A stretch of DNA of 64,000 nt from Chloroflexota bacterium (lineage in GTDB: Bacteria; Chloroflexota; UBA11872). Position 1 is the stretch's first letter. Every line of letters starts with the position of its first letter. A program made the position numbers and the translations under genes. Below the pieces are notes generated by a model that had not been told where the DNA came from, did no database searches, and saw only the letters and a list, made by a program, of their open reading frames with translations. The stretch lies in NCBI GenBank assembly GCA_965198285.1, contig OZ240251.1, positions 3,445,752-3,509,751 of the forward strand, read 5' to 3'. Shown in pieces: positions 16,109 through 61,955 of this stretch.

Positions 16109-17254
16109 ATGGTCGCACTCGCGCTTTCCACCCGCGATCCGGCAACGGCGATTGGCCAGCCGGTCGACGTTTTGGACACGCCGGCATTGGTCCTGGACCT
16201 CAGAGTCGTAGAGGCCAACATCGCCCGCACGGTCGAGATCGCCCAGGCCGCCGGCGCCCGGCTGCGGCCGCACATCAAGACCCACCGAATGCTCGCGGTG
16301 GCCCAACGCCAGATCGAGGCTGGCGCACAGGGCATCTGTTGCGCCAAGACCGGTGAGGCCGAGGTCTTCGCCGACGGCGGTGTCGATGACATCTTCATCG
16401 CCAACCAGGTCGTCGGCGCGGCCAAGATGCGGCGGCTACGAGCGCTCGCCGAGCGCGTCCGGCTCGCCGTGGGCGTCGATCACCCTGAGCAGATCGACTT
16501 GCTCAGCCAGGCATTTCGCGGGGCTGATCCCCTCGACATCAGCATCGAGATCGATGTAGGCCAGCGCCGTACCGGGGTGGTGGAAGACCATGAGGCCGTC
16601 GACCTGGCCCAGCGGATCCTGGATTCGCCGGGGCTCGCCTTGCGGGGCGTCTACACCCACGAAGGCCACGATTACGCGGCGCGGGATGATTCGGACCTGG
16701 CCGTGATCGCGGACCAGGCTCAACGCCAGATGCTGGATGCGGCGCAGGCCATCCGAGACGCCACAGGGGCAGCCTGCGAGGTGAGCATGGGATCGACGCC
16801 GTCGCTGTTCGCACGCAAGTTCCATGCGGGCATCGATGAACTGCGGCCGGGTACCGCCGTCTTCAACGACGGCTCGCACGCCAACTTCCTGGGCCACACC
16901 GACTGGTGTGCGGCCACCGTGCTGGCCACCGTGGTCAACCGGCCCGCGCCCGACCGGGTGGTGGTGGACGCCGGCGCCAAGGCTCTGACCTCCGATCGTC
17001 GTGGGCCCAGCATTCTGGAAAACAGCGGCTTCGGGATGGTCGTGGGCCGCCCCGAGGCCACCATCGTGAGTCTGTCCGACGAGCACGGCGTGCTTTCGGT
17101 GCCGGACGCCGATGCCTATGCCATCGGCGAGGTAATTCAGATCATCCCCAACCACATCTGCCCCTGCGTGAATCTGTACGACCATGCCTTCGTTGCGCGT
17201 GACGGAATCGTGCGGGAAGTGTGGGAAGTCTCGGCACGCGGGCAGAGTCAGTAG
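16109..17254 (+). CDS. alanine-racemase-fold PLP enzyme (DSD1 / D-serine or D-threo-3-hydroxyaspartate dehydratase-like)
   Basis: 381 aa. The PLP lysine context LRPHIKTHRM and the C-terminal beta-domain are present. It is divergent from the aldehyde dehydrogenase. Confidence 0.6.
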   Translation: MVALALSTRDPATAIGQPVDVLDTPALVLDLRVVEANIARTVEIAQAAGARLRPHIKTHRMLAVAQRQIEAGAQGICCAKTGEAEVFADGGVDDIFIANQVVGAAKMRRLRALAERVRLAVGVDHPEQIDLLSQAFRGADPLDISIEIDVGQRRTGVVEDHEAVDLAQRILDSPGLALRGVYTHEGHDYAARDDSDLAVIADQAQRQMLDAAQAIRDATGAACEVSMGSTPSLFARKFHAGIDELRPGTAVFNDGSHANFLGHTDWCAATVLATVVNRPAPDRVVVDAGAKALTSDRRGPSILENSGFGMVVGRPEATIVSLSDEHGVLSVPDADAYAIGEVIQIIPNHICPCVNLYDHAFVARDGIVREVWEVSARGQSQ

Positions 17255-17288
17255 CCAACGCCACTCGCCCGAAGGGAACTCGAGAGTC

Positions 17289-18056
17289 ATGGGAGCTCTT
17301 GACGGTCAAGCCGCCTTGGTCACCGGCGGCGGCAGCGGGATCGGCCGGGCGGCCGCCTTGGCGCTGGCGGGCGATGGCGCCGCGGTAGCCCTGGTCGGGC
17401 GGCGGCTCGCGCTCCTGGAAGAATCCGCCGGGATGATCAAGACGGCCAGAGGCCGCGTCCTGGTTCTGCCGGCCGACGTCGCCGATGCCGACGCGGTCCG
17501 TGAGGCCGTAGCCCAGACCGAAGCCGATTTCGGCCGTCTCGACATCCTGGTCAACAACGCCGGCGCTAACACCGCGTCGCGCAGCGTGGGCACAACCAGC
17601 GCCGACGACATCGAAACGCTGATGCGGATAAACGTGACCGGGCCCCTCACCCTGTCCCAGGCCGCGTTGCCGGGAATGCTGGAACGCGGCGGTGGGGTGA
17701 TCATCACGGTGGCGTCGTACTCGGTCGTAAGCCCCGGGCCGCCTGGCGGAACGGCCTACAGCGCCTCCAAGGCGGCCGTGGTGAGCCTGATGAAATGCGT
17801 GAACGCCGAGTACCGCAACCGCGGTATCCGGGCTTGCATCATCTACCCCGGCGAGGTGAACACCGAGATGCTGGATGCCCGCCCGCTCGTACCCGACGCC
17901 ACCGCCCGCGCAACCATGAGCCACGCCGACGACCTGGCCCAGATCATCCTGCTCTGCGCCCGCATGCCGGCGCGAACGCTGGTTGAAGAGATCTACGTCC
18001 GCCCGACCCACCTGCGCAACATGCAAGCCGACATCGCAGCCGCGATGGAGTTTTAG
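17289..18056 (+). CDS. short-chain dehydrogenase/reductase (SDR), paralog 1
   Basis: ORF 17184..18056 with start MGALDGQAALVTGGGSGIGRAAA (TGxxxGIG), NNAG, and YSASKAAV (YxxxK). It is about 60% identical to 26491..27258. Confidence 0.75.
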   Translation: MGALDGQAALVTGGGSGIGRAAALALAGDGAAVALVGRRLALLEESAGMIKTARGRVLVLPADVADADAVREAVAQTEADFGRLDILVNNAGANTASRSVGTTSADDIETLMRINVTGPLTLSQAALPGMLERGGGVIITVASYSVVSPGPPGGTAYSASKAAVVSLMKCVNAEYRNRGIRACIIYPGEVNTEMLDARPLVPDATARATMSHADDLAQIILLCARMPARTLVEEIYVRPTHLRNMQADIAAAMEF

Positions 18057-18217
18057 CCGACGTCCAAACCTCTCAGCCGCAGCTGGCGCGAAGCTCCGGT
18101 CGTGGGTGAGCTTGCGTCGCGGGCGGCGCGCCGCGGCAGCGTAACGGGCGGTTGGGGGGATTGGATGGGGCTGAGGGCGTGTGCCGGGCGGCGGGATTTG
18201 GGTGGGGGTGAAGGGGG

Positions 18218-18286
18218 AGCTATCTCTCGCCAGCCGGCCCCCAGAGGGGGCCGGCTGGCGAGAGATAGCTTGGGCCGGATTTTTTT
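18218..18286 (+). terminator. 25-bp perfect inverted repeat followed by T7 run (possible intrinsic terminator for the SDR gene, or a structural repeat)
   Basis: AGCTATCTCTCGCCAGCCGGCCCCC-AGA-GGGGGCCGGCTGGCGAGAGATAGCT then TGGGCCGGATTTTTTT. The stem is unusually long, and the T-run is 9 nt from the stem, so this is not canonical. Confidence 0.35.
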
Positions 18287-18369
18287 GGCGGGTTGGCGAC
18301 GAAGGTTGGGGCTGTGAGGGGGCGGCAGGGCGGCGCTGGAAGGGCTGGGTGCGCGGACGTGGCGAGGGG

Positions 18370-18432
18370 GTGGGGTGGGGGCGTCGCGAGCGGAAGAGGC
18401 CGGTTTCAAACCGGCCCCTACGAAAGATGGGG
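18370..18432. repeat. flank repeat block A (left copy); right copy at 26049..26113
   Basis: GTGGGGTGGGGGCGTCGCGAGCGGAAGAGGCCGGTTTCAAACCGGCCCCTACGAAAGATGGGG compared with GTGGGGGGTGTTGGGCTGCGACCGGAAGAGGCCGGTTTGAAACCGGCCCGTACGAAAGAGGGGG. Both contain a GGCCGGTTT-N-AAACCGGCC hairpin. Confidence 0.6.
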
Positions 18433-18624
18433 AACAAGCGGGGGCCAGGCGTCAGGAAGGTGAGTAGGCGGATTAGGGGGGCGAGCATGGAGGGTCCGGG
18501 GGAGGGACTTGGGAAAGGGCGTCTCTAGTGTACACTGCATGGATACGAAGAGCAAGGGTGATAAGGGTAGTGAGTCATTTTGATGTCTCCATGCGGCCTG
18601 GTTGGGGGACAGACCTCGACCGGA

Positions 18625-19050
18625 GGACCCCTCACCGAATTCCGCCGGGGACGGCGGAGTCTGCCTCTCCCCTCGGAGAGGGTGAAGAGCCGGGCAGCGA
18701 CTGAGGAGCGTGGGGTGCGCTGGAGTTGGTTGCCCGGGGGACCCCTCACCGATTTCGGCCGAAGACGCCCGAATCTGCCTCTCCCCTTGGAGAGGGTGAA
18801 GAGCCGGGCAGCGACTGAGGAGCGTGGGGTGCGCTGGAGTTGGTTGCCCGGGGGGACCCCTCACCGAATTCCGCCGGGGACGGCGGAGTCTGCCTCTCCC
18901 CTCGGAGAGGGTGAAGATTGGGAGCCGCCACGTAGGACCGTGGTGGGTGCTCGGACGAGCCCTCACCGATTTCCGCCGAAGACGGCGGAATCCTTCGGCT
19001 AGCTCAGGACGGGTTCTGCCTCTCCCCCAGGCGAGGGGAGGATTGGCGGG
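18625..19050. repeat. ~114-bp tandem repeat, 3.8 copies, each unit carrying two hairpins (REP/MITE-like family)
   Basis: The unit is GGACCCCTCACCGAATTCCGCCGGGGACGGCGGAGTCTGCCTCTCCCCTCGGAGAGGGTGAAGAGCCGGGCAGCGACTGAGGAGCGTGGGGTGCGCTGGAGTTGGTTGCCCGGG. The hairpins are TTCCGCCG-NNNN-CGGCGGAA and CCTCTCC-CCTC-GGAGAGG. Related copies lie at 58.23 kb and 61.87 kb. Confidence 0.7.
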
Positions 19051-19127
19051 ATGTGGTTCGACTCGGGCCCATTCGACAGGCTCAGGGCAGGTTCTTCGAC
19101 GGACTCTGGCCCGGCTGACCATGAACG
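19048..19127. repeat. flank repeat block B (left copy); right copy at 26199..26255
   Basis: GGGATGTGGTTCGACTCGGGCC ... GGACTCTGGCCCGGCT(G/C)ACCATGAACGG is shared. The left copy has a 30-bp insertion between the two halves. Confidence 0.55.
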
Positions 19128-19329
19128 GTGGATGCGAGTACGTGGGCTCGGGTTGGTGGGGAGGTCGGGGTGACACTGGTGCGCTGGGATTGTTGGGTGC
19201 TGCTGGGTCCCGGCTGGGGACGCCGGGATGACGGGGGAAGTGCGCTCGGGATGCGGGCGTGGACGGGATGTGAGGTTGCGCTGGGTTTGATCATGGTGCT
19301 GGGTCCCGGCTGAAGACGCCGGGATGACG

Positions 19330-19455
19330 GGATGTGTTCAGTCGGTCGGGCCAATGTGTTCAGTTTTGGGGCGACTGTGTTCAGTTTTTGGCCCGATGTG
19401 TTCACTCTCCGGCCGAATGTGTTCACTTTGGCGAGGCAGGTGTTCAGTTTTCGGT
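19330..19455. repeat. iteron-like array 1: 6 x 21-22 bp direct repeats (consensus GGCCRAATGTGTTCAGTTTTNGG)
   Basis: The units start near 19331, 19354, 19376, 19396, 19417 and 19439. They are contiguous with no spacers, and the array is preceded by GACGCCGGGATGACGGG. Confidence 0.7.
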
Positions 19456-19497
19456 GGCGGGCGTTGGTTGGGGATCGGGGACGGCGGGATGACGGGG

Positions 19498-19615
19498 ATG
19501 TGTCCACTCTGTCAGGCCAATGTGTCCAGTTTTTGGCCCGATGTGTCAACTTTTCGGGCGAATGTGTCCAGTTTTTGCCGAAATGTGTCCAGTTTCCGGC
19601 CGAATGTGTGCGGTG
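19498..19615. repeat. iteron-like array 2: 6 x 21-22 bp direct repeats (variant core ATGTGTCCAGTTTT)
   Basis: The units start near 19499, 19519, 19541, 19562, 19584 and 19604. The array is preceded by GACGGCGGGATGACGGGG, so the two arrays form a higher-order duplication of about 170 bp. Confidence 0.7.
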
Positions 19616-20151
19616 AGGAAGGGAAGAGGGGAGAGCGGAGAGTAGCGAGAGGGGACAAATAGGGGACTGCCTGTGCGGGCTGGGTGCTTCGGGTGTGGTT
19701 CGACAGGCTCACCAGGGACGCAGGGTGCGCTGGGATCGATCATGGCGGTGGGTTCCCCTCCTTCGGCTAGCTCAGGACAGGCTTCGACAAGCTCAGGGAA
19801 GGCTCTCCAGGGACGCCGGGATGACGAGCGTGGTGGCAAGTGGTTGGTGGGTGGTGGGGAGTGGCTTGTGCCGAGGTCGGTTGTTGGGCTGCTGGAGTTT
19901 TGGGGCGAACCGGGGAACGGGGATGCCGGCAATGACATCACTGCCAGCAACGCGATCAGTGCGTGCGGTGCTGGCAGTGCAGGCAACGCTGGCAGGGATT
20001 CCGGAGTCGGAGAGGCAGAGGCGGACAGGGACATGTCTTAGGCGAATGTCCGAAGCAGCATGTGGTTCAATGGCTGGGGCGTACTGTCGGCATTCCCAGG
20101 TCACAGGGTCCGCGCAGCCTGGGCCATCGTGCAGGAGTCGTGTGGGACAAT

Positions 20152-20166
20152 CGTGTGCTAAGCACA
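20152..20166. promoter_or_regulatory. 15-bp palindrome GTGTGCT-A-AGCACAC 23 nt upstream of the 20189 start (candidate operator)
   Basis: Perfect 7-bp arms, with a direct repeat TCGTGTG just upstream. Confidence 0.3.
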
Positions 20167-20188
20167 CCGCGCCTAATCTCTAGGGATA

Positions 20189-21799
20189 TTGCCTGAGACT
20201 ATGGTCATTAACGATCTAAACGCACTCCTGCAAGCTAAAACTAAGATTGAAAACCTCCTCGAGAATGGTGATACGACTGAGGCTTTTGATTTTGCAGACA
20301 ATCTTTGCGCAGGATCGGGCCAAGAGTCCCTTGTGAGAAACCTGCGTGCATGCACATACGCTGACGTAGGCGAACAGAACAATCAGATCTCTCTAATCGA
20401 AGAGGCAATTCGCATTTGGCGTTCGGCCGGGGAAGAAATCACAACTCGCGAGTCGTACAACTTGGCAAGCTCTATGTTGAGCATTTGGAGTCTCTATGAA
20501 GGGCAACACGGATTTGCCGATACTTGGCTGGAACAACGCGACTATCTGCGCGATTCTAGGAAGATATTCTCAGAAATCGCTAACGACGAGGGAGCTGAAA
20601 CAGAATTCCGGTTAAAGGCGCTAACTGACGCTGGAAACTCTTACGACAATGTCGGACGGCACACGGACGCCATCGATTGCTTCGATCGTGCACTCGCGCT
20701 CGACTCTTCATTTGCAATGGCGACGGGCAATCGCGGCCTGGCCCTCCTCTACGCATCGCCTTACATGAGGGATTTTGAGCGTGAGATTGAGCTACTCGCG
20801 GCAGCAGACCTTGATCACGCGATAAGTAATTCGGAAAGCGTGCTAAAGCATGGCGGAGAGTCGGCGCTAGAGAGCTTTCGCCGGCAGCGCTCTGCAATAC
20901 CTGACTTGCCGAGTGCATCTGATGAATCTGAACCGATGCCACCTAGGTTTACCGATCCTCATTTGACCTGGTGCCTGCGCGAAGGGCTCTTTCTGCACGT
21001 AGCGCCGTGGCTGGTGGGTAGCAATGCGTCGGTTCTCGACCCAATTTTCTTCAGGCGCATAATAACGAGTCTCGGCGCAAGGGACATAACCCTCACCAAT
21101 GAGATCATTGACGCATTTAATACGATTAAGCAGGACTTTGTGTCGGCTCGCTATTTGGTGTGGGCATCGAGTGAGCCTAGCAGTCCAATCTGGACGCATG
21201 CTCAGTCGATCAGCTCGCACGTATCATTTTTGGATACTCTCGATTACGGCAGGTGGGGCGTTCGAACTGGTACTGCAATTCAGGCATTCAAGGCGGCTGT
21301 AGATGTTCTGGATAAGAGTGCGTCCTTTGCACACTTGTACTTCGGCACCAAACAGGCAGCTCGTCGTGTATCGTTTCGTAGCCTACCTTACGAGGACAGC
21401 GCACGTCGAAACGTTGCGGCAGCGTTTGAGAGTGCTTTGAACGGAAAGTCGCCTAACCGAGGGTTGTCGGCCTTAATGGATCTGAGCTACGAACTTGATG
21501 ACGAGGGATCATCGCCTCTAGCACTTAATGTAAACATGCGACACGCTGCCACGCATCGGTTCTTGACTGTTCATTCTGAGATGGCTCCGGAATCGTCGGA
21601 CTGGAGTGAGCGAATCAACTGGCGAGATCTCATCGACGAGTCTTTGTGTCAATTACGACTTGCGAGGTCTGCAATATTCTATTTAGCGCAGATGATTGAC
21701 ATGCAAGAGGATGTCAAGATTGCTACGGAAGCTGGAATGTCGGTGACCATGGCGCTGCCATATGCAAGGCTAGACACTGACTTGCTGGAGGCCGAATAG
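20189..21799 (+). CDS. TPR-repeat protein with C-terminal HEPN-like R-x4-H motif (candidate LA2681-type HEPN RNase / Abi-like protein)
   Basis: 536 aa. The N-terminal two-thirds holds several TPR-like helical pairs (for example AIDCFDRALALDSSFAMATGNRGLAL). At the C-terminus ...ALNVNMRHAATHRFLTVH... gives R-x4-H, the HEPN catalytic signature, in a predicted all-helical region. GC is about 45-50% against ~68% for the flanks, and there is a clean ATG with no overlap. Confidence 0.45.
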   Translation: MPETMVINDLNALLQAKTKIENLLENGDTTEAFDFADNLCAGSGQESLVRNLRACTYADVGEQNNQISLIEEAIRIWRSAGEEITTRESYNLASSMLSIWSLYEGQHGFADTWLEQRDYLRDSRKIFSEIANDEGAETEFRLKALTDAGNSYDNVGRHTDAIDCFDRALALDSSFAMATGNRGLALLYASPYMRDFEREIELLAAADLDHAISNSESVLKHGGESALESFRRQRSAIPDLPSASDESEPMPPRFTDPHLTWCLREGLFLHVAPWLVGSNASVLDPIFFRRIITSLGARDITLTNEIIDAFNTIKQDFVSARYLVWASSEPSSPIWTHAQSISSHVSFLDTLDYGRWGVRTGTAIQAFKAAVDVLDKSASFAHLYFGTKQAARRVSFRSLPYEDSARRNVAAAFESALNGKSPNRGLSALMDLSYELDDEGSSPLALNVNMRHAATHRFLTVHSEMAPESSDWSERINWRDLIDESLCQLRLARSAIFYLAQMIDMQEDVKIATEAGMSVTMALPYARLDTDLLEAE

Positions 21800-21981: not shown

Positions 21982-24900
21982 CTAGACGGCCACCTGGGCT
22001 TCGGTGTCGCCGGCGGTGAGGGCGTTCATGTAGGCGAGGATTAGGGCTTTGGTGCGGTAGTGGTTGAAGGCGGCTTGGTCCTGGCGTTGGATGATGGGGA
22101 AGGTGGAGAGGATGTAGGCCGCGTCTTCGCGGGTGAGGCCGTAGAGGTGGAAGTAGAGGGCGTCGAGGCGGGCTCGGAGGTGGCGACGTTCTTCGGGGTC
22201 CCAGGGGAAGGGTGGGCCGTGGTGGCCTAGGTCGCGGGCGAAGGGGGCCATGTCGTGGGCGGTGTAGGTGAGGCGGAGGACGTGGTGGTGGACGAGGTCG
22301 GCGGCGGTGCGGTCGCCGAAGCGGCGGTGATAGGTGGCTGGAGGAAGGACCGGGAGTTGCTCGACGGTGTACCAGGTCAAATGCTGACCCTGGACTTTCT
22401 GGCGGGCAACGAAGTCGAACGCGAACGAGTTCAGGGAGGCGAGCCAGAAGCAGGCATTTTCCTTATAAGTGGCGACGTCAGCGTCGGGCATCAGCAGCGG
22501 CAGTGTGTGACCGGCGCCTACGCGCGGAATGATTGAGGCGATGACTGCCCGGACATTCGTTGGCGAAGTTACGTCCTTGAACGCCACTGCCCAACTCAAT
22601 TCATCGGGCCACTTGATGTCTTGCTCACTAACCCAGAACTGAGGAGTCGGTAGCCAATATGGATCGCCGTGCTCTTCGGCTGTGGCCGGTCTTGGCTGGG
22701 CGGGTCGGTGGAGATTCTTCCGGTTGACAACCACGCTGGCGGCGCGGTGGTCAAACGCCTGTGTCATTTTCCCCTCATAGAGAGGGACGTAATGATCAGC
22801 GCCACGCTTCCAACGATTGGCTTGGACGGGGTAGAAGCCCTCTTCCTGCAGTTCGGACGTGGTTCGGAAAAGGTGAGATGAATTGGCCATGTCCAGCATG
22901 CGGACGTAGCGGACGGGCCAAGCGCGGCGTTCGTCGTCGCCTGAACGGTCCACCAGGACAGGATGGTCCTGGTAGATACGGCGAGTGATGTCGGCGTCGC
23001 GGCGGGTGCGGAAGACGGGGGCGGTGCCGGTGTTGGGGTTGACGCGGGCGAAGTCGTCGGGGCTGAGGGTAAAGGCTCGGTCAGGGTCGGTGATGGTGGT
23101 GTCAGGCAGGAAGAAGCCGCAGCGGGTCTCGGGGAACGTGCGCCCGGGTCCGCCGATGATGAGGGCGCAGAACTTGAAGCGGGAGTCGATGTCGGGGAAG
23201 AAAGGCGGCAATTCGGTTCCGAGGCGACGGTTTTCGAAGTCAAAGATTCCGGCGACGCGGCCGGTGGTGGAGACGGACTGGAAGAAGCGGGCGGCGGTGC
23301 GGTCGGCGTAGATGCCGGAGGGGGTGAGCAGGCCGACGAGGCCGTTGGGTTTGACGAGGCGCAGGGAGCGTTCGACAAAGAGGGAGTAGAGGTTGATGTC
23401 GCCACCGCCCAACAACGGGTAGTGGCCGGAGGCGCGGATGACCTGGCCGAGGCGGTCGGCGCGGGCCTTGGCCTTGTCGAAGGCCACGGCCAATGGAGCG
23501 CCATGTTCGCGCAGGCGCTTGATGCCTTCGTGGCGGGCGGCGGCAGTGGCGGCACGGGCGAGATCTGGGTCCCTGGTGGCAAACCACTCGACTTCCTGGA
23601 GCTTGATGCGGTCCCAAGGGGGATTGCCGATGACAGCGTCGAAGCCGCCCTCGGGGGTTTGGTTTTGCCAGTGACGCCAGACGCCGGGGAAGGCGGCTTC
23701 CCAGTGGAGGAAGGATTCCTGGTCGGCTACAGAGTGGGCCTCGGCCAGGCGCTCGCGAAAAGCGGTTGAACGATTGTGCGCTCGGTCGCCCGGCGGACGC
23801 GCCAACTGCTCGTAAGCGCGGCTGGCGTCGGCCCCCAGCGTCTCGGCTATTGGCGCTTCGAATACGGCACGCTGGCGGACCTTGAGGCCGGCGGTGAGCC
23901 AGCGGAGGCCGGTGAGGGTGTCGAGGAAGCTGCGGAGGTCGGCAGTGGCGGACTCGACGGCCTGGAAGAGCGACTGGGACTGGTGGACTTCCGACACGTC
24001 GGCATCGGAGAGCTGTTCGATCCGGCGCATGCCCTGGGCGGCGTTCTCGATGCCTTGCAGCGCGCTGGACACGAACATGGGCACGTCCAGCCGCTGCAAG
24101 TCCGCCGTGGCGTCGGCGCTGTGCAGCCCCAGCAACGAATCTCCGCAGCGTAAATGGTGATCCAAGAACGATAGGGGCGCGCCGACCGTGAAGCTATGGA
24201 GCCAGAGGGAGACCTTTGCAAGTTCGACGGTGAGCGAGTTCTTGTCCACCCCGTAGATGCAGCGCTTGAGCACCAAGCGGCGGATGATGGCCTGGTCGCT
24301 CAACTGGGTCTCGTAGACCTTCCAGCCGGACGCGTGAGCGCGATGCAGGATGTCAGAGCGAATGGCGGCGATACGGTCAAGCAAGGGCGAGTGGTAAGGG
24401 TCGTCTTCGGGCAGCCAGTCGGGGATGGCGGGGACGAACTCAATCAGGTCGGCGACATAGTCGGTCAGGAAATCAACGGCGGTGACTAGGAAATGGCCGC
24501 TGCCCATCGCCGGGTCCAGCACCTTGAGATCGAGCACGGCCTGGGCGGGGTCCAGGCGGGCTAGCTCGGCGCGGCGCTCGGCTTTGGGGCGGCGGTCGCC
24601 CTTCAATTCCTTGGCCCGGGCCTCGAAGGCGTCCAGGCGTTCCTCGATGAGCGGCTTGAGGGTCTGGTCGACTATGAGGTCCACGAGATCCTGCGGGGTG
24701 TAGAAGCTGCCGCTGTCCTTGCGGGCGTAGGGGTTGGGGCGGACCGTCACCGCCCCCTGAGCGTCCAGCACCGGTTCCTGTTCCAGCAGACGTTCGTAGA
24801 TGGATCCGAGTTGCTGGACGGACATGTCGCGGTAGTTGACGTAGCGGCGCTGGCCGTCGGTTTGGGTGTGGCTGAGGTCGTAGATGATGTCGGCGATGAC

Positions 24901-26004
24901 GTTGTCAGAGACGCGGACCCTGCCAAGAAGTTTGGAGGCGTCCTCGGCAAACAGGCCGCCGTTGTAGGGCGGCAGGCCGACGTCCGGATCTCCCTGATCA
25001 ATCTGCCGGAAGAGTTCCTTCAGGTGATTCCAGTAGCTGGCAGCTGTGTCCGAGAAGGTGTCGTTGCGGGCTTTGCGCTCGGCTACGTCGTCGCGTACAC
25101 GCTTGCGGAGGCCGTAGTCGTCGTAGGCGGCGTCGTTAACGGGCAGGAGGCCGCGGTCTTCGGCGTAGAGGACGAAGAGCAGGCGGTAGAGAAAGATGAG
25201 GGCGGCTTCGCGGATTGCGGGCATGGGCCGGTCGGTGGCATCGGCCAGGGCCTGGAGGAGGCGGGGAAAGACGCGCTGGAAGACGACGCCGGCGAGGCTC
25301 TGGGCGACGCGCTGTTCGTAACGACGGCCCTGGTCTAGAGCGGTCTCCAGGAAGGTGACGGCGGCGCCGGGGCGGCGCAGGAAGGCGGAGCGGCGAAAGA
25401 GAAGGTGGAAGGTGCGGAGGGCGTCCTGGTCGTCGGCTTGGAGGAGGGCCTGGAGGTCGGCTTCGTAGTAGGCGGTGGCGCGGGGGCGAGTTTTCTGGTC
25501 GTAGAGACGCCAGACGGCACCGTTGGTGAGGATCCCCCAGCGGAGGTCGCCGTCGGTGACGGTTTCGGCTTCGCGGAGGTAGCGAAGGATCTGGGCGTGG
25601 GGTGAGGAGGCCTGGAGTCCCTTGCCGGAGCCGCGGGTGTCGAGGGGACGACGGAAGCGTTTGAGCTCGGCGACGGCGAGGGCTTCGAGGAATGAGCTGG
25701 CGTTGGAACCGGTGGCGCGGGTCTTGGCCTGGGCGTCGGGGAAGAGGAGCAGGTCGGGGATATTTTCGCCGCCGCTGGTCGTCTGCTGGGAGAGGTCGTC
25801 GGTCCAGCCGAGGAGTTGGAGCAGGGGACGAATGAGGTCCTGCTCGGTCTGAGTCTCGTTGGGGTTGTGGGCGGTGGGGAAGTCCTGGAAGAGGCGGCGG
25901 GCTTCGTCACGGAAGGTGTTGTAGGCGCGGCGCTGGGTTTGGCGCTCGGGGGTTTGGCGGATGCCGTCGGTGAGGAAGTACTGGGTGAATAGGTGGCCGG
26001 GCAT
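21982..26004 (-). CDS. Type IIG (MmeI-like) restriction-modification enzyme: PD-ExK nuclease + gamma-class N6-adenine methyltransferase + target-recognition region
   Basis: 1340 aa. The N-terminus ENIPDLLLFPD...LAVAELKRF resembles the MmeI-family D...ExK nuclease core. Motif I is VLDPAMGSGHFLV (about aa 515) and motif IV is GNPPW (about aa 790), in gamma order. A C-terminal ~550 aa region ends with an Eco57I/MmeI-like tail (YVPLYEGKM.QAFDHR ... LYGL...YIL.TFPI). No separate methylase gene is nearby. Confidence 0.7.
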   Translation of the reverse strand: MPGHLFTQYFLTDGIRQTPERQTQRRAYNTFRDEARRLFQDFPTAHNPNETQTEQDLIRPLLQLLGWTDDLSQQTTSGGENIPDLLLFPDAQAKTRATGSNASSFLEALAVAELKRFRRPLDTRGSGKGLQASSPHAQILRYLREAETVTDGDLRWGILTNGAVWRLYDQKTRPRATAYYEADLQALLQADDQDALRTFHLLFRRSAFLRRPGAAVTFLETALDQGRRYEQRVAQSLAGVVFQRVFPRLLQALADATDRPMPAIREAALIFLYRLLFVLYAEDRGLLPVNDAAYDDYGLRKRVRDDVAERKARNDTFSDTAASYWNHLKELFRQIDQGDPDVGLPPYNGGLFAEDASKLLGRVRVSDNVIADIIYDLSHTQTDGQRRYVNYRDMSVQQLGSIYERLLEQEPVLDAQGAVTVRPNPYARKDSGSFYTPQDLVDLIVDQTLKPLIEERLDAFEARAKELKGDRRPKAERRAELARLDPAQAVLDLKVLDPAMGSGHFLVTAVDFLTDYVADLIEFVPAIPDWLPEDDPYHSPLLDRIAAIRSDILHRAHASGWKVYETQLSDQAIIRRLVLKRCIYGVDKNSLTVELAKVSLWLHSFTVGAPLSFLDHHLRCGDSLLGLHSADATADLQRLDVPMFVSSALQGIENAAQGMRRIEQLSDADVSEVHQSQSLFQAVESATADLRSFLDTLTGLRWLTAGLKVRQRAVFEAPIAETLGADASRAYEQLARPPGDRAHNRSTAFRERLAEAHSVADQESFLHWEAAFPGVWRHWQNQTPEGGFDAVIGNPPWDRIKLQEVEWFATRDPDLARAATAAARHEGIKRLREHGAPLAVAFDKAKARADRLGQVIRASGHYPLLGGGDINLYSLFVERSLRLVKPNGLVGLLTPSGIYADRTAARFFQSVSTTGRVAGIFDFENRRLGTELPPFFPDIDSRFKFCALIIGGPGRTFPETRCGFFLPDTTITDPDRAFTLSPDDFARVNPNTGTAPVFRTRRDADITRRIYQDHPVLVDRSGDDERRAWPVRYVRMLDMANSSHLFRTTSELQEEGFYPVQANRWKRGADHYVPLYEGKMTQAFDHRAASVVVNRKNLHRPAQPRPATAEEHGDPYWLPTPQFWVSEQDIKWPDELSWAVAFKDVTSPTNVRAVIASIIPRVGAGHTLPLLMPDADVATYKENACFWLASLNSFAFDFVARQKVQGQHLTWYTVEQLPVLPPATYHRRFGDRTAADLVHHHVLRLTYTAHDMAPFARDLGHHGPPFPWDPEERRHLRARLDALYFHLYGLTREDAAYILSTFPIIQRQDQAAFNHYRTKALILAYMNALTAGDTEAQVAV

Positions 26005-26490
26005 TAGAGAAGGACGTTTTCGGTACGGGGAAGCATCGCATGTTTGGGGGTGGGGGGTGTTGGGCTGCGACCGGAAGAGGCCGGTTTGAAACCGGCCCGT
26101 ACGAAAGAGGGGGCGGGGACGGCGGGGGCGTCACGACCGGAAGGTGGGGGGCGGGTTCTCCGAGGGACGCCGGGGCGGCTCACCACGAACGGGGGGCTGG
26201 GGATGTGGTTCGACTCGGGCCGCCGAGGGACTCTGGCCCGGCTCACCATGAACGGATAGAGAAGACGGGCGGGTCGGGGGCAACGGCCCTGCGAAGGGCA
26301 GGACGGGAGGGCGCGGGGTGGGGCAAAGCGTCTGGATTGACCGAAGCGCCGTGGGCCGTAGATGACATGATGGGTGTGGTCGAGTCACGCAGAGATACGG
26401 TGAGCGACGTCGGGACGGGGCGGACGGGTCGCCGTAACTCAATGTGACCCAATACTGAGAATCCAGCAGCCGCGAAGGGCAGGTGCGCCG

Positions 26491-31030: not shown

Positions 31031-31185
31031 ATTCTACTAGACGCACCTTGGACACTTAAGCCACAATGTCCCTGGTCTGGACGATTCCGTGCCTTCGAAA
31101 GGGGCGCAGCAACGTCCGTCGGCTATCGCGGTGAGGATATGCCACGGTTGTTCAGGAAAACACTCGTGGCGTGGAGGAGGTTCGG

Positions 31186-31440
31186 ATGGCTACCGACAGC
31201 GGCATGACGATCACGGAAGCGCGCGACTTGCTGGGGCAGTTGGTGGGCCGCGTCCAGTACGGGCACGAGCGCATTGTGCTCACGCGTCATGGGCGGCCGG
31301 CGGCCGCGCTGGTGCCGATGGATGATCACGAGGCCCTGGAACGGCTCGAGGACGAGATCGACTTGGCCGACGCGCTGGCCGCGCTGCGCGAGCCGGGGCG
31401 TGTCTCGTGGGCGGATCTGAAGGCCGAGCTCAAGCTCTAG
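31186..31440 (+). CDS. Phd/YefM-family antitoxin
   Basis: ORF 31171..31440: MTITEARDLLGQLVGRVQYGHERIVLTRHGRPAAALVPMDDHEALERLEDEIDLADAL. This is the classic Phd/YefM fold. It is transcribed divergently from the RelE gene, with a 155-bp gap. Confidence 0.65.
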   Translation: MATDSGMTITEARDLLGQLVGRVQYGHERIVLTRHGRPAAALVPMDDHEALERLEDEIDLADALAALREPGRVSWADLKAELKL

Positions 31441-31483
31441 GCACGAACGAACCGCAGCGGTTTTGCCGTAGGAGCCCCGCGCC

Positions 31484-33046
31484 ATGAAGCAGCGTCACGT
31501 CAACACGACGGACATCGGCAGCGCCATCCGGGCGGGCTGCCGGACGATGGCCAGCGTGTTCAACGCGGACGACAACGACATTCCCTTTTTTGGTTCGCAG
31601 GTCTGGCCGGACCCGCACCTGGCATTCACTTCGGTGCATTCGGAATCGCACGTCCCCGGCCGTCACCTCAACGCGTTACTGACCGCGGAGTCCCTGGGGT
31701 TCCCGATCGATCAGGAGGCTGTCGAGAAGCACGCTCGGGCCGCATTCTTCTCGTACGGCGGTCCGCTGCCTCTGCCGCTGAACCGCGAGCGGATTGACGG
31801 ACCGCTGGAGAATTTTCGCCCGCATAACGTGCGCGAAGGATTCCACGCGCTCTACGCGCTGGCGCGCTTTCGCGACTCCTCACAAGCGCGAGAGGTAGCC
31901 GAAGCCAGCATTGCGACGATTCGCCGGCTCTGGGATCCCGGCCGGGGCTGGACCGAGGATCGGATCGCCGCCGAGCACGGGATCAACTTCCACCACCAGG
32001 GCACGTTCATCACGGGGCTGGGTCGGGCCATCGGTCCTCTGGTCAAGTACTACCGCGCAACGGGGTACGGACCAGCCCTGGAGCTGGCCATCCTGATGAA
32101 GGAAAAGGCCGTCACGGATTACTTCCTGACCGACGGCAGCTACGACACGGATCGGTTTGGCGATCACACGCACTCCACCACCTGCGTCATGTCGTCGCTG
32201 GCCCAGCTGGCCGACCTGCTCAATGATGGGCCGCTGATGGAGCGCGTCAGGTCGTTTTACACAAGCGGCCTGTGGGAAATCCGCGACCAGTTGGGCTGGG
32301 TGATCGAAAGCAGCGCGCCGGACGCCCCGCCGGAACGCGGCGAAGCCAACAACACCGGCGACATCCTGGAGACCGCCCTCATCCTGGGCCGCTGGGGCTA
32401 CGCCGAGGCCTACGACGATGCCGAGCGCATCCTGCGCGGCCATCTGTTGCCCAGCCAGCTGCGGGACGTGTCCTGGATCGCCGAGCCGCCCAACCCAGCT
32501 GGTGACGACGGACGCCACGACGTGGCCCGGCGGCATTGGGGCGCCTACGGGTTCCCGGCGCCCTACGGTCACCGACCGGTTGGGTTGCCGCGGGTGGCGT
32601 TCAACATGGATATCGTCGGCGGTGCCGTGGCCTCGCTGTGCGAGGCGTACCGCGATGCGACCCGCCATGACGCGACGGGGCATTGGGTCAACCTGCTGTT
32701 CGACCAGCAGACCGACGCGATCAAGGTCGAGTCGCCCTACACCGGCGATGGCCTCGGCGTCACCCTGAAACGACCGGGGCCGCTGTTCGTACGCATTCCG
32801 GCCTGGGCAGATGCGGCCGGCGTGGCCGTGCGCGGCTTTCCCGCACCGCCGCGGCGGACGGAACGCTATCTGCTGCTGGCAAGGCCGCCGGTGGGTCGGC
32901 GCCTCAGCTTCACGCTCGATCCGCCGGCGAACGAATTGCTGCTGCGCCATCGGACGCACGACATCCGGGTACGCCTGCGCGGGGACGAAGTGACGGCGAT
33001 GGACAACTTCGGCCAGAAGCTGACCTTTTTCGACCCAATCCTCTGA
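31484..33046 (+). CDS. hypothetical protein, possibly (alpha/alpha)6-barrel glycoside-hydrolase-like
   Basis: 520 aa with well-behaved codon usage and no recognisable catalytic motif. The family assignment is a guess. Confidence 0.35.
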   Translation: MKQRHVNTTDIGSAIRAGCRTMASVFNADDNDIPFFGSQVWPDPHLAFTSVHSESHVPGRHLNALLTAESLGFPIDQEAVEKHARAAFFSYGGPLPLPLNRERIDGPLENFRPHNVREGFHALYALARFRDSSQAREVAEASIATIRRLWDPGRGWTEDRIAAEHGINFHHQGTFITGLGRAIGPLVKYYRATGYGPALELAILMKEKAVTDYFLTDGSYDTDRFGDHTHSTTCVMSSLAQLADLLNDGPLMERVRSFYTSGLWEIRDQLGWVIESSAPDAPPERGEANNTGDILETALILGRWGYAEAYDDAERILRGHLLPSQLRDVSWIAEPPNPAGDDGRHDVARRHWGAYGFPAPYGHRPVGLPRVAFNMDIVGGAVASLCEAYRDATRHDATGHWVNLLFDQQTDAIKVESPYTGDGLGVTLKRPGPLFVRIPAWADAAGVAVRGFPAPPRRTERYLLLARPPVGRRLSFTLDPPANELLLRHRTHDIRVRLRGDEVTAMDNFGQKLTFFDPIL

Positions 33047-53362: not shown

Positions 53363-53918
53363 TCCGCGGATCCTGGCGGAGCTGCCTTCCGGTGAGGCTC
53401 TGGCCGATGGCTTTGTCGAGTTGCGCGCCAACGTGCTGGTGGCGATGGGTGAACGGGCGCATGCCGTCGTTACGGTTACCAGCCCGCATACCGGGGAGCC
53501 ACGGCGGCATGTGGCGGCGCAGCTGGCGGCGGCGCTGGCACAGACAGGGCGGCGGGTGCTGCTGGTTGACGCCGATGTCGACGGCACGGTCAGCGACGGT
53601 GAGTCAGAGGCGCAAACAGTGCCTGACCGTCTTTCCGTTATGACCGCTGAGGCCGTGCGGGCTGGTGATGCGGCGCTGCTTTCGGGAACTGCCTTTCTGG
53701 ACTGGGTGCGGGCCGAGGCCGAAGAACATGATCTGGTGATTGTGGCGGGGCCGCCGTTGTTGGACGTGCCGGATGGGCGAGCACTGGCGGCGGTGGCGGA
53801 CGGCGTGCTGCTGACGGTGGTGCATGCGCGGTCCAACCGGGACGACGCGATTCGAGCGCGCGGGATCCTGCGCGAGGCCGGCGCGAACCTGCTGGGGGCA
53901 GTGGTCGTCGAAGGCTAG
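53355..53918 (+). CDS. BY-kinase-like ATPase (CpsD/CapB/Wzc C-domain-like) with degenerate Walker A
   Basis: Probable GTG start at 53355 (VADPRIL...). It has the MinD/ParA-like fold, with VTVTSPHTGEPRRHVAAQLAAALAQ in place of the P-loop GxxGxGK[ST]. The Walker B-like motif VLLVDADVDG is present, but there is no C-terminal Tyr cluster. Confidence 0.45.
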   Translation: MADPRILAELPSGEALADGFVELRANVLVAMGERAHAVVTVTSPHTGEPRRHVAAQLAAALAQTGRRVLLVDADVDGTVSDGESEAQTVPDRLSVMTAEAVRAGDAALLSGTAFLDWVRAEAEEHDLVIVAGPPLLDVPDGRALAAVADGVLLTVVHARSNRDDAIRARGILREAGANLLGAVVVEG

Positions 53919-54934: not shown

Positions 54935-55017
54935 GGTTGGGGTTCCTTGGCGGGGTGTTGCCGCACTATGGCGGGGCGGGGTTTCGGAGTCAATCGGCGA
55001 GCGGTTTGTGCGCACGT

Positions 55018-55041
55018 AAGAGTTTTTTCCAAAAAACTCTT
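55018..55041. promoter_or_regulatory. perfect 24-bp AT-rich palindrome about 85 nt upstream of the AKR start (candidate operator)
   Basis: AAGAGTTTTTT-CC-AAAAAACTCTT. It sits in an otherwise G-rich, roughly 70% GC region. Confidence 0.35.
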
Positions 55042-61920: not shown

Positions 61921-61955
61921 CACCTTCAAGGTCGAGGAAGCGTTATGCAAAGGTC

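What the first reader, a model, noticed from the sequence alone, without database searches (positions are those of the whole stretch)
19330..19615. Two six-unit arrays of 21-22 bp iteron-like direct repeats with array-specific sequence variants
Array 1 repeats ...ATGTGTTCAGTTTT... and array 2 repeats ...ATGTGTCCAGTTTT..., and both are contiguous with no spacers, so this is not a CRISPR. Each array is preceded by GGGATGACGG, so the whole forms a roughly 170-bp higher-order duplication. Periodicity of about two helical turns with head-to-tail units is typical of plasmid or phage replication-origin iterons, or of multi-site operator arrays for a regulator. This fits an integrated replicon remnant, or a regulatory array for the downstream defense genes. 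A roughly 50-nt polypurine (GA-rich) tract follows at about 19615..19665.
Basis: seen in the sequence. Interest (0 to 1): 0.7.

Follow-up and report, generated by a model that had tools for sequence, protein, structure and literature searches.

The report
Dispersed repeat cassette, not an origin
The two 21-bp repeat arrays are real, but they are one copy of a multicopy non-coding cassette (hairpin, outward promoter, phased repeat arrays) scattered over the chromosomes of Chloroflexota known mostly from sponge microbiomes, so they are not plasmid or phage origin iterons, and their function is still unknown.

Summary
Observation confirmed. Six units (core ATGTGTTCA) lie at 19332-19458. Five full units plus one degenerate unit (core ATGTGTCCA) lie at 19498-19609. 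Spacing is 22 then 21 bp, and a polypurine tail follows.

The same arrays occur at many unrelated intergenic loci in at least 14 Chloroflexota genomes, with 15 loci recovered from one genome in a truncated scan. They are conserved at orthologous positions. There is no Rep gene, DnaA-box cluster, AT-rich region, or plasmid or phage match.

The arrays are the distal module of a discrete 0.8-1.7 kb non-coding cassette, about 18100-19780 in the window. Its parts are:
- a GGGGGTGAAGGGGG motif
- a 25-bp perfect hairpin with compensatory changes between copies
- a C-rich leader
- a sigma-70-type promoter (TTGCCN-17-TACAMT) on the opposite strand, firing away from the arrays
- the arrays and the polypurine tail

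The 13-nt core is far better conserved than the 8-nt spacer. Phasing is exactly two helical turns. There is no coding periodicity and no conserved RNA fold. Cassette orientation tracks the locally G-rich strand in 64 of 76 loci. The side beyond the arrays often holds defence or toxin-antitoxin genes.

Best guess, inferred and not shown: cooperative protein-binding sites on duplex DNA upstream of the cassette promoter.

The parts
18100..18203 (+). 5' conserved lead of the cassette. The left edge is approximate.
   Evidence: GC skew jumps from -0.18 to +0.43 at 18100. Blastn coverage by paralogous and orthologous copies starts about 100 nt before the G-rich motif.
18204..18217 (+). GGGGGTGAAGGGGG motif
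   Evidence: GGGTGAAGG lies upstream of the arrays in most copies (37 matches listed, a few of them chance hits elsewhere in the loci). The 11-mer GGGGGTGAAGG occurs in 31 loci and never in far flanks.
18218..18270 (.). 25-bp perfect hairpin: AGCTATCTCTCGCCAGCCGGCCCCC, loop AGA, GGGGGCCGGCTGGCGAGAGATAGCT
   Evidence: The consensus structure has 23 pairs, 11 with double compensatory changes in 24 copies and almost no breaks. Single-copy folds give -56 to -69 kcal/mol.
18271..18286 (+). TGGGCCGGATTTTTTT, a conserved tail after the hairpin. It is a T run on the + strand and an A run on the - strand.
   Evidence: Conserved in the alignment of 29 copies. K-mers AGCTTGGGCCG and GGCGGATTTTT are enriched.
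18287..18526 (-). Block 2. Read on the - strand it is a C-rich leader with no conserved structure, running from the promoter to the hairpin.
   Evidence: It aligns between copies. No conserved pairs are predicted outside the hairpin.
18527..18555 (-). Sigma-70-type promoter firing leftwards: -35 TTGCTC (18555..18550), 17-nt spacer, -10 TACACT (18532..18527)
   Evidence: TTGNNN-17-TACNNT (mostly TTGCCN and TACA[A/C]T) is found once, always with a 17-nt spacer, in 28 of 34 copies. The tool's own scan calls the L004 copy at 10/12. The window copy matches only 7/12 and is not called by the scan.
18620..18962 (+). Three copies of a 114-bp tandem repeat. This is an insertion relative to other cassette copies and is not part of the core cassette.
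   Evidence: TRF score 524. Three copies in the repeat finder family D2. Absent from the orthologous L072. Sub-threshold whalefall-1 hits on the - strand.
19315..19331 (+). GACGCCGGGATGACGGG junction motif before the T array
   Evidence: Four copies in the window, at 19219, 19315, 19480 and 19812. The same motif precedes arrays in many loci.
19332..19458 (+). T array: six units with core ATGTGTTCA, spacing 22, 21, 21, 21, 21
   Evidence: Homologous unit by unit to arrays in L098, L072, L006 and others.
19459..19497 (+). Linker between the arrays, containing GGGGACGGCGGGATGACGGGG
   Evidence: (family D5).
19498..19609 (+). C array: five units with core ATGTGTCCA (the third unit has core ATGTGTCAA) plus a degenerate sixth unit at 19604
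   Evidence: 90.6% identical to the C array of the orthologous L072.
19610..19665 (+). Polypurine tail, GTGAGGAAGGGAAGAGGGGAGAGCGGAGAG...
   Evidence: The same GTGAGGAAGGGGAGAGGGCAGAGG tail follows the last unit in many other copies. TRF reports period 7 at 19620-19655.
19680..19830 (+). Generic genome-wide repeat modules (GTGGTTCGACAGGCTCACC, TTCGGCTAGCTCAGGACAGG, GACGCCGGGATGACG). This is the approximate 3' edge of the repeated region.
   Evidence: the repeat finder families D6, D7, D8, D10, D11. Coverage by other copies ends near here.

Best explanation
SHOWN. The two arrays are the distal module of one copy of a multicopy, lineage-restricted, non-coding cassette of 0.8-1.7 kb. It is found in Chloroflexota genomes, many of them metagenome bins, at least some from sponges.

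Read along the array strand, a cassette contains:
1. About 100 nt of conserved lead.
2. GGGGGTGAAGGGGG.
3. A 25-29-bp perfect hairpin followed by TTGGGCCGGATTTTT.
4. About 250 nt of G-rich sequence (C-rich on the other strand).
5. A sigma-70-type promoter, TTGCCN-17-TACAMT, on the opposite strand. It fires back through the hairpin towards the left-hand neighbour gene.
6. A polypurine stretch and variable generic repeats.
7. One to three arrays of about six 21-bp units, then a polypurine tail.

The cassette sits at conserved chromosomal positions across species. It is not a replication origin.

INFERRED. Each unit is a 13-bp asymmetric recognition site (ATGTGTYCASTTT) plus an 8-bp G/C-rich spacer. 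The strict 21.0-bp phasing puts all sites on one face of duplex DNA. An as-yet unidentified sequence-specific protein would bind cooperatively along the six-site modules. It would build a defined higher-order complex upstream of the cassette promoter: 118-341 bp upstream in most copies, further in a few, and 805 bp in the window because of inserted repeats. That complex would regulate the promoter, or insulate it and the core gene it serves from the variable region beyond the arrays, which is often defence-gene-rich. In the window the left neighbour is convergent, so this copy has no obvious gene to drive.
For: **Dispersal**
About 85 are GC-rich Chloroflexota loci from at least 14 species-level genomes. 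15 come from CBDBOH, 7 from CBDHGI010000006.1 and 6 from OY764080.1.

**Orthology**
- The window is colinear with L015 (85% over 4.6 kb) and L072 (80%). Arrays sit at the same place in all three.
- Other syntenic groups have PepF, SecD/DprA or an AMP-binding synthetase as neighbours.

**Site anatomy**
- Positions 1 and 11-13 of the unit were not used for detection. They are 88-98% invariant, against 37-81% for the commonest base at positions 14-21. There is no 3-base periodicity.
- Spacing after the first unit is exactly 21 in 415 of 438 intervals.
- Spacer sequences are position-specific and shared between copies.
- By my hand count on the listing, window against L098 differs at 4 of 78 core positions and 11 of 49 spacer positions.
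- The core 8-mer is at background level outside the arrays.

**No RNA fold in the arrays**
- 0 consensus pairs in 36 arrays. Fold z-scores are -0.4 and +0.3.

**Discrete cassette**
- Coverage by other copies starts about 100 nt before the G-rich motif and ends shortly after the arrays.
- 33 of 37 GGGTGAAGGGG-type motif hits within the fetched loci have arrays downstream.
- A locus ascertained from the hairpin alone (L142) also has arrays 398 bp downstream.

**Promoter**
- It occurs once per copy, always with a 17-nt spacer whose sequence varies, in 28 of 34 copies. The scan tool confirms the L004 copy.
- The left neighbour gene lies on the promoter's strand in 46 of 59 loci.
Against: - No binding protein is identified, and nothing here shows binding.
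- The distance from arrays to promoter varies from 118 bp to over 1 kb. This argues against direct contact with RNA polymerase.
- About half of the array loci show no recognisable lead or promoter. Many of these lie at contig ends, so this is not decisive. One group (L021, L054, L057, L077) has the arrays directly against a gene with no cassette promoter between.
- The motif never occurs as single or double sites at other promoters. That is unusual for a transcription-factor regulon.
- The strong strand asymmetry and the tie to local GC skew (64 of 76 loci) are not explained by a simple operator model.
- The window copy of the promoter is weak (7/12) and faces the 3' end of a convergent gene.
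- Expression was not measured, so transcription of the arrays cannot be excluded.
Confidence: 0.55

Rival explanations
1. RNA-level function. The arrays are transcribed from the G/T-rich strand and act as a multivalent RNA, either a sponge for an RNA-binding protein or a precursor cut into 21-nt units.
For: All units lie on one strand, and the cassette is strongly strand-asymmetric (GC skew +0.28 in the 500 bp before the arrays). Orientation follows the G-rich strand of the chromosome, as stable RNA genes often do. A conserved polypurine tail follows the last unit. The hairpin has extra G.U pairs only when read on the + strand, 56 against 9.
Against: By eye, no promoter-like hexamers were seen between the cassette promoter and the arrays on the array strand, and the window scan found none. 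This was not scanned systematically across the loci. The one conserved promoter faces away, so the arrays lie upstream of it. There is no conserved structure and no Rfam match. Exact 21.0-nt phasing has a natural meaning on B-DNA but none for RNA. The G.U excess may simply reflect G/T richness.
Confidence: 0.12
2. Recombination or transposition sites. The arrays are multiple binding sites for a recombinase or transposase. That enzyme either spread the cassette or captures gene cassettes next to it, in an att-like or integron-like way.
For: The family is multicopy, with unit-by-unit homology between copies, so it spread from a master copy. Variable low-GC defence and toxin-antitoxin genes lie just beyond the arrays or between two arrays (L105, L009). 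The same HEPN and RM genes sit next to arrays in three species. IS110-family transposase genes sit in or next to the cassette in six loci. The island in the window is flanked on its far side by copies of cassette pieces.
Against: No recombinase is consistently adjacent; the left neighbours are housekeeping genes. There are no inverted copies of the core at the other end of the cassette and none elsewhere, so there is no terminal-inverted-repeat architecture. Copies are stable at orthologous positions across species with about 80-85% flank identity. IS110 elements may simply target a sequence in the cassette.
Confidence: 0.12
3. Polar chromosome element. The arrays bind a protein that acts directionally on replication forks or DNA translocases, as a fork barrier or an orienting signal.
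For: The array strand is the locally G-rich strand in 64 of 76 loci. Mean flank skew is +0.08 on both sides and for genes of both orientations (+0.090 and +0.088). In closed genomes array orientation flips wherever local skew flips. The site is asymmetric.
Against: Origin and terminus positions are unknown. The test with tRNA orientation was uninformative, 2:2. In the window itself the flanking skew is mixed. The skew link could arise indirectly, because cassette orientation is coupled to the gene it serves. Known polar elements (Ter, KOPS) are single short sites, not six-unit arrays.
Confidence: 0.08
4. Operator array for the downstream defence genes (HEPN-TPR gene 20189-21799 and type IIG restriction-modification gene 21982-26004).
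For: The HEPN gene follows the arrays on the same strand in both the window and L079. About 260 bp upstream of the gene is also conserved between them. Defence genes are frequent downstream of the arrays.
Against: The orthologous loci L015 and L072 keep the arrays with unrelated downstream genes. L098 keeps the arrays and RM but has other genes in place of HEPN. Downstream gene orientation is 38:36. Many copies lie next to housekeeping genes only.
Confidence: 0.05
5. Neutral minisatellite. The arrays are slippage-generated tandem repeats carried along in a selfish or decaying repeat element, with no function of their own.
For: Unit number varies from 3 to 13 between loci. T and C states interchange. 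The cassette is littered with other generic repeats and insertions.
Against: The core is several-fold better conserved than the spacer at positions not used for detection. Six units is the mode. Defined first (22 nt) and last (AGGTGT) units and position-specific spacers are retained across species, which is not what slippage gives. The arrays persist at orthologous loci whose flanking genes are only 80-85% identical.
Confidence: 0.05
6. Replication-origin iterons of an integrated plasmid or phage remnant.
For: Units of 21-22 bp, head to tail at two helical turns, in two clusters. This is the geometry of iterons.
Against: Many loci per chromosome. No Rep or initiator gene. No DnaA-box cluster. 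No AT-rich unwinding region; minimum GC is 0.51. No plasmid or phage similarity and no family member in viral contigs. The arrays are conserved at orthologous chromosomal sites.
Confidence: 0.02

Closest known systems
Plasmid and phage iterons (R6K, RK2, pSC101, P1 incA/incC)
   Same: Asymmetric direct repeats of about 20 bp, head to tail, phased at two helical turns, in clusters of five to seven. They are expected to be bound cooperatively on one DNA face.
   Different: No initiator gene, no DnaA boxes and no AT-rich region. There are many copies per chromosome, conserved at chromosomal loci across species, and no sequence similarity to any plasmid or phage record searched.
Type II partition centromeres and repressor arrays (R1 parC with ParR, pSK41 parC, omega-repressor heptad arrays of pSM19035). 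The comparison rests on my own knowledge.
   Same: Two clusters of contiguous direct repeats lie near a promoter. In those systems small dimeric proteins polymerise on the repeats to form a superhelical complex that serves as both operator and handle.
   Different: No parM, parR or omega-like gene is adjacent. Here the arrays lie 120-800 bp to one side of the promoter and do not flank it. The arrays are dispersed at many chromosomal loci.
Mosaic intergenic repeat elements: BIME/REP of enterobacteria, BOX elements of Streptococcus pneumoniae (boxA-(boxB)n-boxC), Correia elements of Neisseria. The comparison rests on my own knowledge.
   Same: Multicopy, intergenic and modular. They have a stable hairpin module and, in BOX, an internally repeated module. 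Correia elements can carry promoters, and all can affect neighbouring genes.
   Different: The cassette is much longer (0.8-1.7 kb). Its array is a strictly phased, six-unit module with position-specific units. It carries a conserved complete promoter with a long leader. It has no terminal inverted repeats and no sequence relation to those families.
MIRU/VNTR minisatellites of mycobacteria and STRR repeats of cyanobacteria. The comparison rests on my own knowledge.
   Same: Tandem repeats dispersed at tens of intergenic loci in one lineage.
   Different: The units are 21 bp with a sharply conserved 13-bp core, and six is the modal number, retained across species. The arrays are embedded in a larger conserved cassette. 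They do not look hypervariable.
Stoperators of mycobacteriophage L5 (13-bp asymmetric repressor sites that act in one orientation). The comparison rests on my own knowledge.
   Same: A 13-bp asymmetric site used in one orientation at many intergenic places. It would fit an orientation-dependent roadblock.
   Different: Stoperators are single sites on a phage genome with a known repressor. Here the sites occur only in arrays, on chromosomes, with no known protein.

Membership tests
Iteron-type replication origin (plasmid or phage oriV) | Tandem direct repeats of 17-22 bp spaced at about two helical turns | tested here: met
   Spacing is 22 then 21 bp in both arrays.
Iteron-type replication origin (plasmid or phage oriV) | Adjacent gene for the iteron-binding initiator (Rep) | tested here: not met
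   Pfam finds an SDR upstream and HEPN_LA2681+TPR and an Eco57I-type enzyme downstream. No Pfam family matches the ORFs inside the region.
Iteron-type replication origin (plasmid or phage oriV) | AT-rich unwinding element and DnaA boxes next to the repeats | tested here: not met
   The lowest 100-bp GC content between 18100 and 20200 is 0.51. TTATCCACA with at most 1 mismatch gives 3 matches against 4.1 expected, none between 18 and 20 kb.
Iteron-type replication origin (plasmid or phage oriV) | Repeats specific to one replicon, one or a few clusters per replicon | tested here: not met
   15 loci were recovered from the two large contigs of CBDBOH in a truncated scan, and there are many loci in other genomes.
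CRISPR array | Repeats separated by unique spacers of similar length | tested here: not met
   Units are contiguous. The 8-nt variable part is G/C-rich and position-specific between copies.
REP/BIME or MITE-type mobile repeat | Multicopy and intergenic | tested here: met
REP/BIME or MITE-type mobile repeat | Terminal inverted repeats or target-site duplication | tested here: not met
   There are no inverted copies of the core at the lead end or elsewhere. Cassette ends are ragged and differ by subfamily. Target-site duplications were not examined in detail.
REP/BIME or MITE-type mobile repeat | Associated transposase in the genome (RAYT for REP, parent IS for a MITE) | not tested
   Whole genomes were not available. 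IS110-family genes sit in some copies but look like insertions: L040 has one where the orthologous L053 does not.
VNTR or MIRU-type minisatellite | Copy number hypervariable between close relatives | tested here: inconclusive
   Unit number ranges from 3 to 13 with a mode of 6. Orthologous arrays in different species often keep the same units. No within-species data were available.
Partition centromere with repressor array (parC/ParR type) | Two clusters of direct repeats associated with a promoter | tested here: inconclusive
   Two clusters are present, and a conserved promoter lies 118-341 bp to one side in most copies (805 bp in the window). The clusters do not flank it.
Partition centromere with repressor array (parC/ParR type) | Adjacent genes for the adaptor and the motor (ParR/ParM or equivalents) | tested here: not met
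   None were found among the neighbours scanned.
Structured non-coding RNA (any Rfam family) | Match to a curated covariance model, or conserved base pairing | tested here: not met
   For the arrays there is no Rfam hit and there are 0 consensus pairs. Only the cassette hairpin is structurally conserved. The whalefall-1 hits are sub-threshold and lie in the inserted 114-bp repeats, not in the arrays.
Polar chromosomal elements (Ter or KOPS type) | Orientation bias relative to the replication strand | tested here: inconclusive
   Orientation follows local GC skew in 64 of 76 loci. However, origin and terminus are unknown and the tRNA test was uninformative.

The most novel reading that the evidence does not exclude
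The cassette is a domesticated, multicopy boundary device oriented with the replication strand. A protein filament nucleated on the twelve phased sites would form a directional barrier or recombination platform. It would separate a core gene and its promoter from an adjacent hotspot where defence and toxin-antitoxin genes are gained and lost. The arrays would then organise defence-island hotspots across the chromosome of these symbionts, something like an integron platform or insulator with no known integrase.
Probability: 0.1. Interest if true: 0.8.

Novelty: new variant of a known kind. Interest (0 to 1): 0.5.

Why it matters
It removes a false lead: there is no hidden replicon or origin at this site.

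It also defines what seems to be an undescribed family of non-coding elements in Chloroflexota that are known mostly from metagenome bins, some of them from sponges. Two full-text searches found no description of it, which is weak evidence of absence.

The family is unusually well structured for an intergenic repeat:
- a hairpin maintained by compensatory change
- a complete promoter with a fixed 17-nt spacer
- arrays of a 13-bp site at exactly two helical turns

It shows two genome-scale regularities that call for an explanation:
- its orientation is tied to strand composition
- its far side is repeatedly occupied by restriction, HEPN, GmrSD, ATPase and toxin-antitoxin genes

If a binding protein is found, the cassette would give a handle on gene regulation or chromosome organisation in an uncultured lineage. 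It would also give a marker for variable regions in their genomes. On a practical level, these cassettes break short-read assemblies, because many copies lie at contig ends, and they generate spurious ORFs.

Tried and rejected
- **Coding heptad repeat.** 21 bp equals 7 codons, and ORF 19332-19616 runs through both arrays. Rejected because conservation is a contiguous 13-nt block with no 3-base periodicity, all three forward frames are open, and the 22-nt first unit shifts the frame.
- **Structured RNA in the arrays.** Rejected: 0 consensus pairs and fold z-scores near 0.
- **Known RNA family.** Rfam found only tRNAs at gathering threshold. At relaxed E-values it found sub-threshold whalefall-1 hits in the 114-bp repeats and chance miRNA hits on the hairpin.
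- **Plasmid or phage relatives.** Blastn in distant mode found no match. The viral-contig scan with the array pattern gave 27 hits, all unrelated low-GC repeats.
- **Exact look-up of the HEPN protein to find the source contig.** Not on record.
- **DnaA boxes and an AT-rich region.** None found.
- **Array cores as recognition sites (CTGRAC) of the neighbouring Eco57I/MmeI-type enzyme.** Dropped. The hexamer is not depleted in the window (120 against 65.5 expected), and only 7 of 12 units carry it.
- **tRNA orientation to decide which strand is leading.** Only 4 tRNAs in 85 loci, split 2:2.
- **Single operator sites elsewhere.** The core is at background frequency outside the arrays.
- **Sigma-70 promoter or intrinsic terminator in the window region by the scan tool.** No promoter was called, and the one terminator-like hit is within shuffle expectation.
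- **Literature.** Two full-text searches found no description of such repeats in Chloroflexota or sponge symbionts.
Full report
**1. The observation**

- Tandem Repeats Finder gives period-21 arrays at 19332-19454 and 19498-19609.
- The core ATGTGTYCASTYT with at most one mismatch occurs 11 times. All matches are on the + strand between 19332 and 19595, and there are none elsewhere in 64 kb. Shuffles give 0.14 expected.
- Read unit by unit, array 1 has six units with core ATGTGTTCA, starting at 19332, 19354, 19375, 19396, 19417 and 19438.
- Array 2 has five units with core ATGTGTCCA (the third unit has the variant core ATGTGTCAA), starting at 19498, 19520, 19541, 19562 and 19583. A degenerate sixth unit at 19604 merges into a polypurine tract.
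- Both arrays are preceded by GGGATGACGG.
- The two arrays are 70% identical at an offset of 166 bp.

**2. Setting in the window**

The arrays lie in about 2.1 kb without a credible gene.
- Upstream is a short-chain dehydrogenase gene (17184-18056, +).
- Downstream is a low-GC HEPN_LA2681+TPR gene (20189-21799, +), followed by an Eco57I/MmeI-type restriction-modification gene (21982-26004, -).
- GC skew jumps from -0.18 to +0.43 at 18100 and stays strongly positive to about 20100.
- The stretch also holds a 114-bp tandem repeat (18620-18962) and several short motifs repeated within it.

**3. Is it a replicon remnant? No**

- No plasmid or phage record resembles the region.
- No Rep-like gene is nearby.
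- There is no DnaA-box cluster and no AT-rich stretch.
About 85 of these are GC-rich loci from Chloroflexota metagenome bins and closed symbiont chromosomes. They represent at least 14 species-level genomes, each with several loci: 15 from CBDBOH, 7 from CBDHGI010000006.1, 6 from OY764080.1 and 4 from OZ242271.1.
- The remaining hits are unrelated low-GC repeats.
- The jk18x bins come from Caribbean Ircinia sponges (PMC9531527).
- The same pattern found no family member in viral contigs.

**4. Anatomy of the arrays across copies**

- Six units is the modal number.
- The first interval is 22 bp in 78 of 129 arrays. Later intervals are exactly 21 bp in 415 of 438 cases.
- Unit positions 1-13 (ATGTGTYCASTTT) are nearly invariant. 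This includes positions 1 and 11-13, which were not used for detection. Positions 14-21 are degenerate and G/C-rich. There is no 3-base periodicity, so this is not coding.
- Units are position-specific. The first unit carries GTCGGTCGGGSCA or CTCTGTCAGGCCA, the last starts AGGTGT, and many arrays end in the same polypurine tail.
- The copies therefore descend from a master element, and the core has since been kept while the spacers drifted. By my hand count on the listing, window against L098 differs at 4 of 78 core positions and 11 of 49 spacer positions.
- T and C at position 7 are usually segregated into a T array followed by a C array. C-then-T, fused and mixed arrays also exist. The array-specific variant is therefore not a fixed rule.
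- Outside the arrays the core is at background frequency, and there are no inverted copies.
- The arrays have no conserved RNA structure.

**5. The arrays belong to a larger cassette**

K-mers enriched upstream of the arrays led to GGGGGTGAAGGGGG plus a long hairpin, usually 380-650 bp before the arrays and 1128 bp before them in the window.
- The hairpin is a perfect stem of about 25 bp. The consensus structure has 23 pairs, 11 of them with double compensatory changes among 24 copies and almost no breaks.
- Coverage by other copies shows a discrete unit. It starts about 100 nt before the G-rich motif and ends shortly after the arrays.
- Between hairpin and arrays lies a conserved block. Read on the opposite strand, this block is a sigma-70-type promoter: TTGNNN (mostly TTGCCN), a spacer of always 17 nt with variable sequence, then TACNNT (mostly TACA[A/C]T).
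- The promoter occurs once per copy in 28 of 34 copies. The scan tool calls the L004 copy at 10 of 12 matches.
- It fires away from the arrays, through a C-rich leader with no conserved structure, the hairpin and the C-rich motif, towards the left-hand neighbour. That neighbour lies on the promoter's strand in 46 of 59 loci.
- Left-hand neighbours are ordinary genes: PepF, SecD and an AMP-binding synthetase, plus others I recognised only by eye.
- A metagenome scan with the hairpin pattern alone found two contigs. The one with enough sequence has arrays 398 bp downstream.

In the window the parts are:
- motif 18204-18217
- hairpin 18218-18270
- promoter -10 at 18532..18527 and -35 at 18555..18550
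- arrays 19332-19609
- polypurine tail to 19665

The 114-bp repeats are an insertion. They are absent from the orthologous L072.

In the window the left neighbour is convergent and the promoter copy is weak (7/12, not called). This copy therefore has no evident gene to drive.

**6. Conservation and neighbours**

- The window is colinear with L015 (85% over 4.6 kb) and L072 (80%), with arrays in the same place.
- Cassette plus HEPN gene is colinear with L079 in OY764080.1. Arrays plus the restriction-modification gene are colinear with L098 in CBDHGI010000006.1.
- Beyond the arrays many loci carry low-GC3 genes typical of defence islands: type IIG and type I restriction-modification, GmrSD, an AAA_21/AAA_15 ATPase, HD, DUF2806 and DUF4020.
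- In L105 (and, less clearly, L009) genes that look by eye like PIN-type toxin-antitoxin pairs lie between two arrays. I did not scan these against Pfam.
- IS110-family transposase genes sit in or beside the cassette in six loci. In L040 the gene lies between the T and C arrays, where the apparently orthologous L053 has none.

**7. Strand asymmetry**

- In array orientation the flanking DNA more than 800 bp away has positive GC skew in 64 of 76 loci, with a mean of +0.08.
- This holds on both sides and for genes of either orientation, +0.090 and +0.088. It persists out to 7 kb.
- In closed genomes array orientation flips wherever local skew flips.
- I could not decide which strand is leading. 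Only four tRNAs were present, split 2:2.
- In the window itself the flanks are mixed.

**8. Mechanism**

Shown:
- a multicopy chromosomal cassette
- selective retention of a 13-bp asymmetric site at exact two-turn phasing
- a conserved outward promoter
- a hairpin maintained by compensation

Inferred: the arrays are cooperative binding sites on duplex DNA for an unknown protein. They would form a defined complex upstream of the cassette promoter that regulates or insulates it.

Points against this model:
- the distance from arrays to promoter is variable
- the site never occurs singly
- some arrays lack a recognisable promoter
- the skew link is unexplained

Rivals kept open are an RNA role, a recombination or transposition role, and a polar chromosome role. 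Rivals largely excluded are origin iterons, CRISPR, coding repeats and recognition sites for the neighbouring restriction enzyme.

**9. Comparison and novelty**

In geometry the arrays work like iterons or parC/omega-type repressor arrays. They fail the membership tests for an origin or a partition locus. As a genome feature the cassette is closest to mosaic intergenic repeats such as BIME, BOX and Correia elements. It differs from them in size, in carrying a complete promoter and leader, and in its strictly phased, position-specific six-unit modules. Two literature searches found no description. I rate it a new variant of a known kind, of moderate interest.

Noticed in passing
window 18620-19036, - strand: The 114-bp tandem repeat (three copies plus a partial fourth) gives four sub-threshold matches to the Rfam family whalefall-1 (RF01762). 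The best is 24 bits against a gathering score of 37, E = 0.0026. That family was known only from whale-fall metagenomes (PMC2864571). Here the motif behaves as a repeated insertion inside the cassette and is absent from the orthologous L072.
   Followed up: partly
L040 2604-3548; also L060, L028, L048, L080, L011: IS110-family transposase genes (DEDD_Tnp_IS110 plus Transposase_20) lie inside or right next to the cassette in six loci. In L040 the gene sits between the T and C arrays, where the apparently orthologous L053 has none. This suggests that the IS targets a sequence within the cassette.
   Followed up: partly
window 26046-26113 and 26200-26255: On the far side of the HEPN and restriction-modification genes lie copies of cassette pieces. 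26046-26113 is 84% identical to block 2 at 18366-18432. 26200-26255 copies 19048-19128. The island is therefore bracketed by cassette-derived sequence, and the same arrangement is kept in L098.
   Followed up: partly
window 21982-26004, 31123-31485, 53915-55369, 60941-63999: Several genes on the - strand have an unusually C-rich coding strand (+ strand GC skew +0.15 to +0.27). Most other genes in the window have mildly G-rich coding strands. The restriction-modification gene is one of the C-rich ones and is confirmed by Pfam.
   Followed up: no
window about 17000-18100: Cumulative GC skew of the window has its minimum here: negative over 1-17 kb, strongly positive over 18-27 kb, then near zero. 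This may only reflect the G-rich cassette and the atypical restriction gene, not a true strand switch.
   Followed up: no
window 19219, 19315, 19480, 19812 and 18991, 19069, 19759, 19780: Short generic motifs (GACGCCGGGATGACG; TTCGRCWRGCTCAGGRCAGG) recur inside the cassette. They also recur between arrays and flanks in many other loci, and occasionally in far flanks. They look like a separate family of small genome-wide repeats.
   Followed up: partly
L105 999-3871; L009 2227-3398: Small genes lie between two arrays of the same orientation. By eye, L105 has two toxin-antitoxin-like pairs with PIN-like members plus a 327-aa ORF, and L009 has a 256-aa and a 134-aa ORF. None of these was scanned against Pfam.
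   Followed up: partly
L013, L049, L079, about 150-200 nt before the G-rich motif: A second, AT-rich hairpin (AAGAGTTTCTTCCAAGAAACTCTT and variants) is conserved upstream of the cassette in three genomes.
   Followed up: no
L045, L046, L053 around the hairpin: Long runs of G, C or N replace part of the hairpin region in these bins. This looks like an assembly artefact at the long GC-rich stem. Many arrays also sit at contig ends, so the cassette seems to break short-read assemblies.
   Followed up: no
L027; L115-L139: The three-unit pattern also picked up unrelated repeat arrays with a similar TGTGTNCA core. One is a Metamycoplasmataceae contig with an array of 63 units (L027). Another is a conserved GATGTGTTCAATATGAACAGAC repeat in many low-GC viral contigs.
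   Followed up: no
window 19928-20188 against L079 6016-6276: About 260 bp upstream of the annotated TTG start of the HEPN gene is conserved at about 78% between two species. It could be the gene's own promoter and leader, or the true start may lie further upstream.
   Followed up: no
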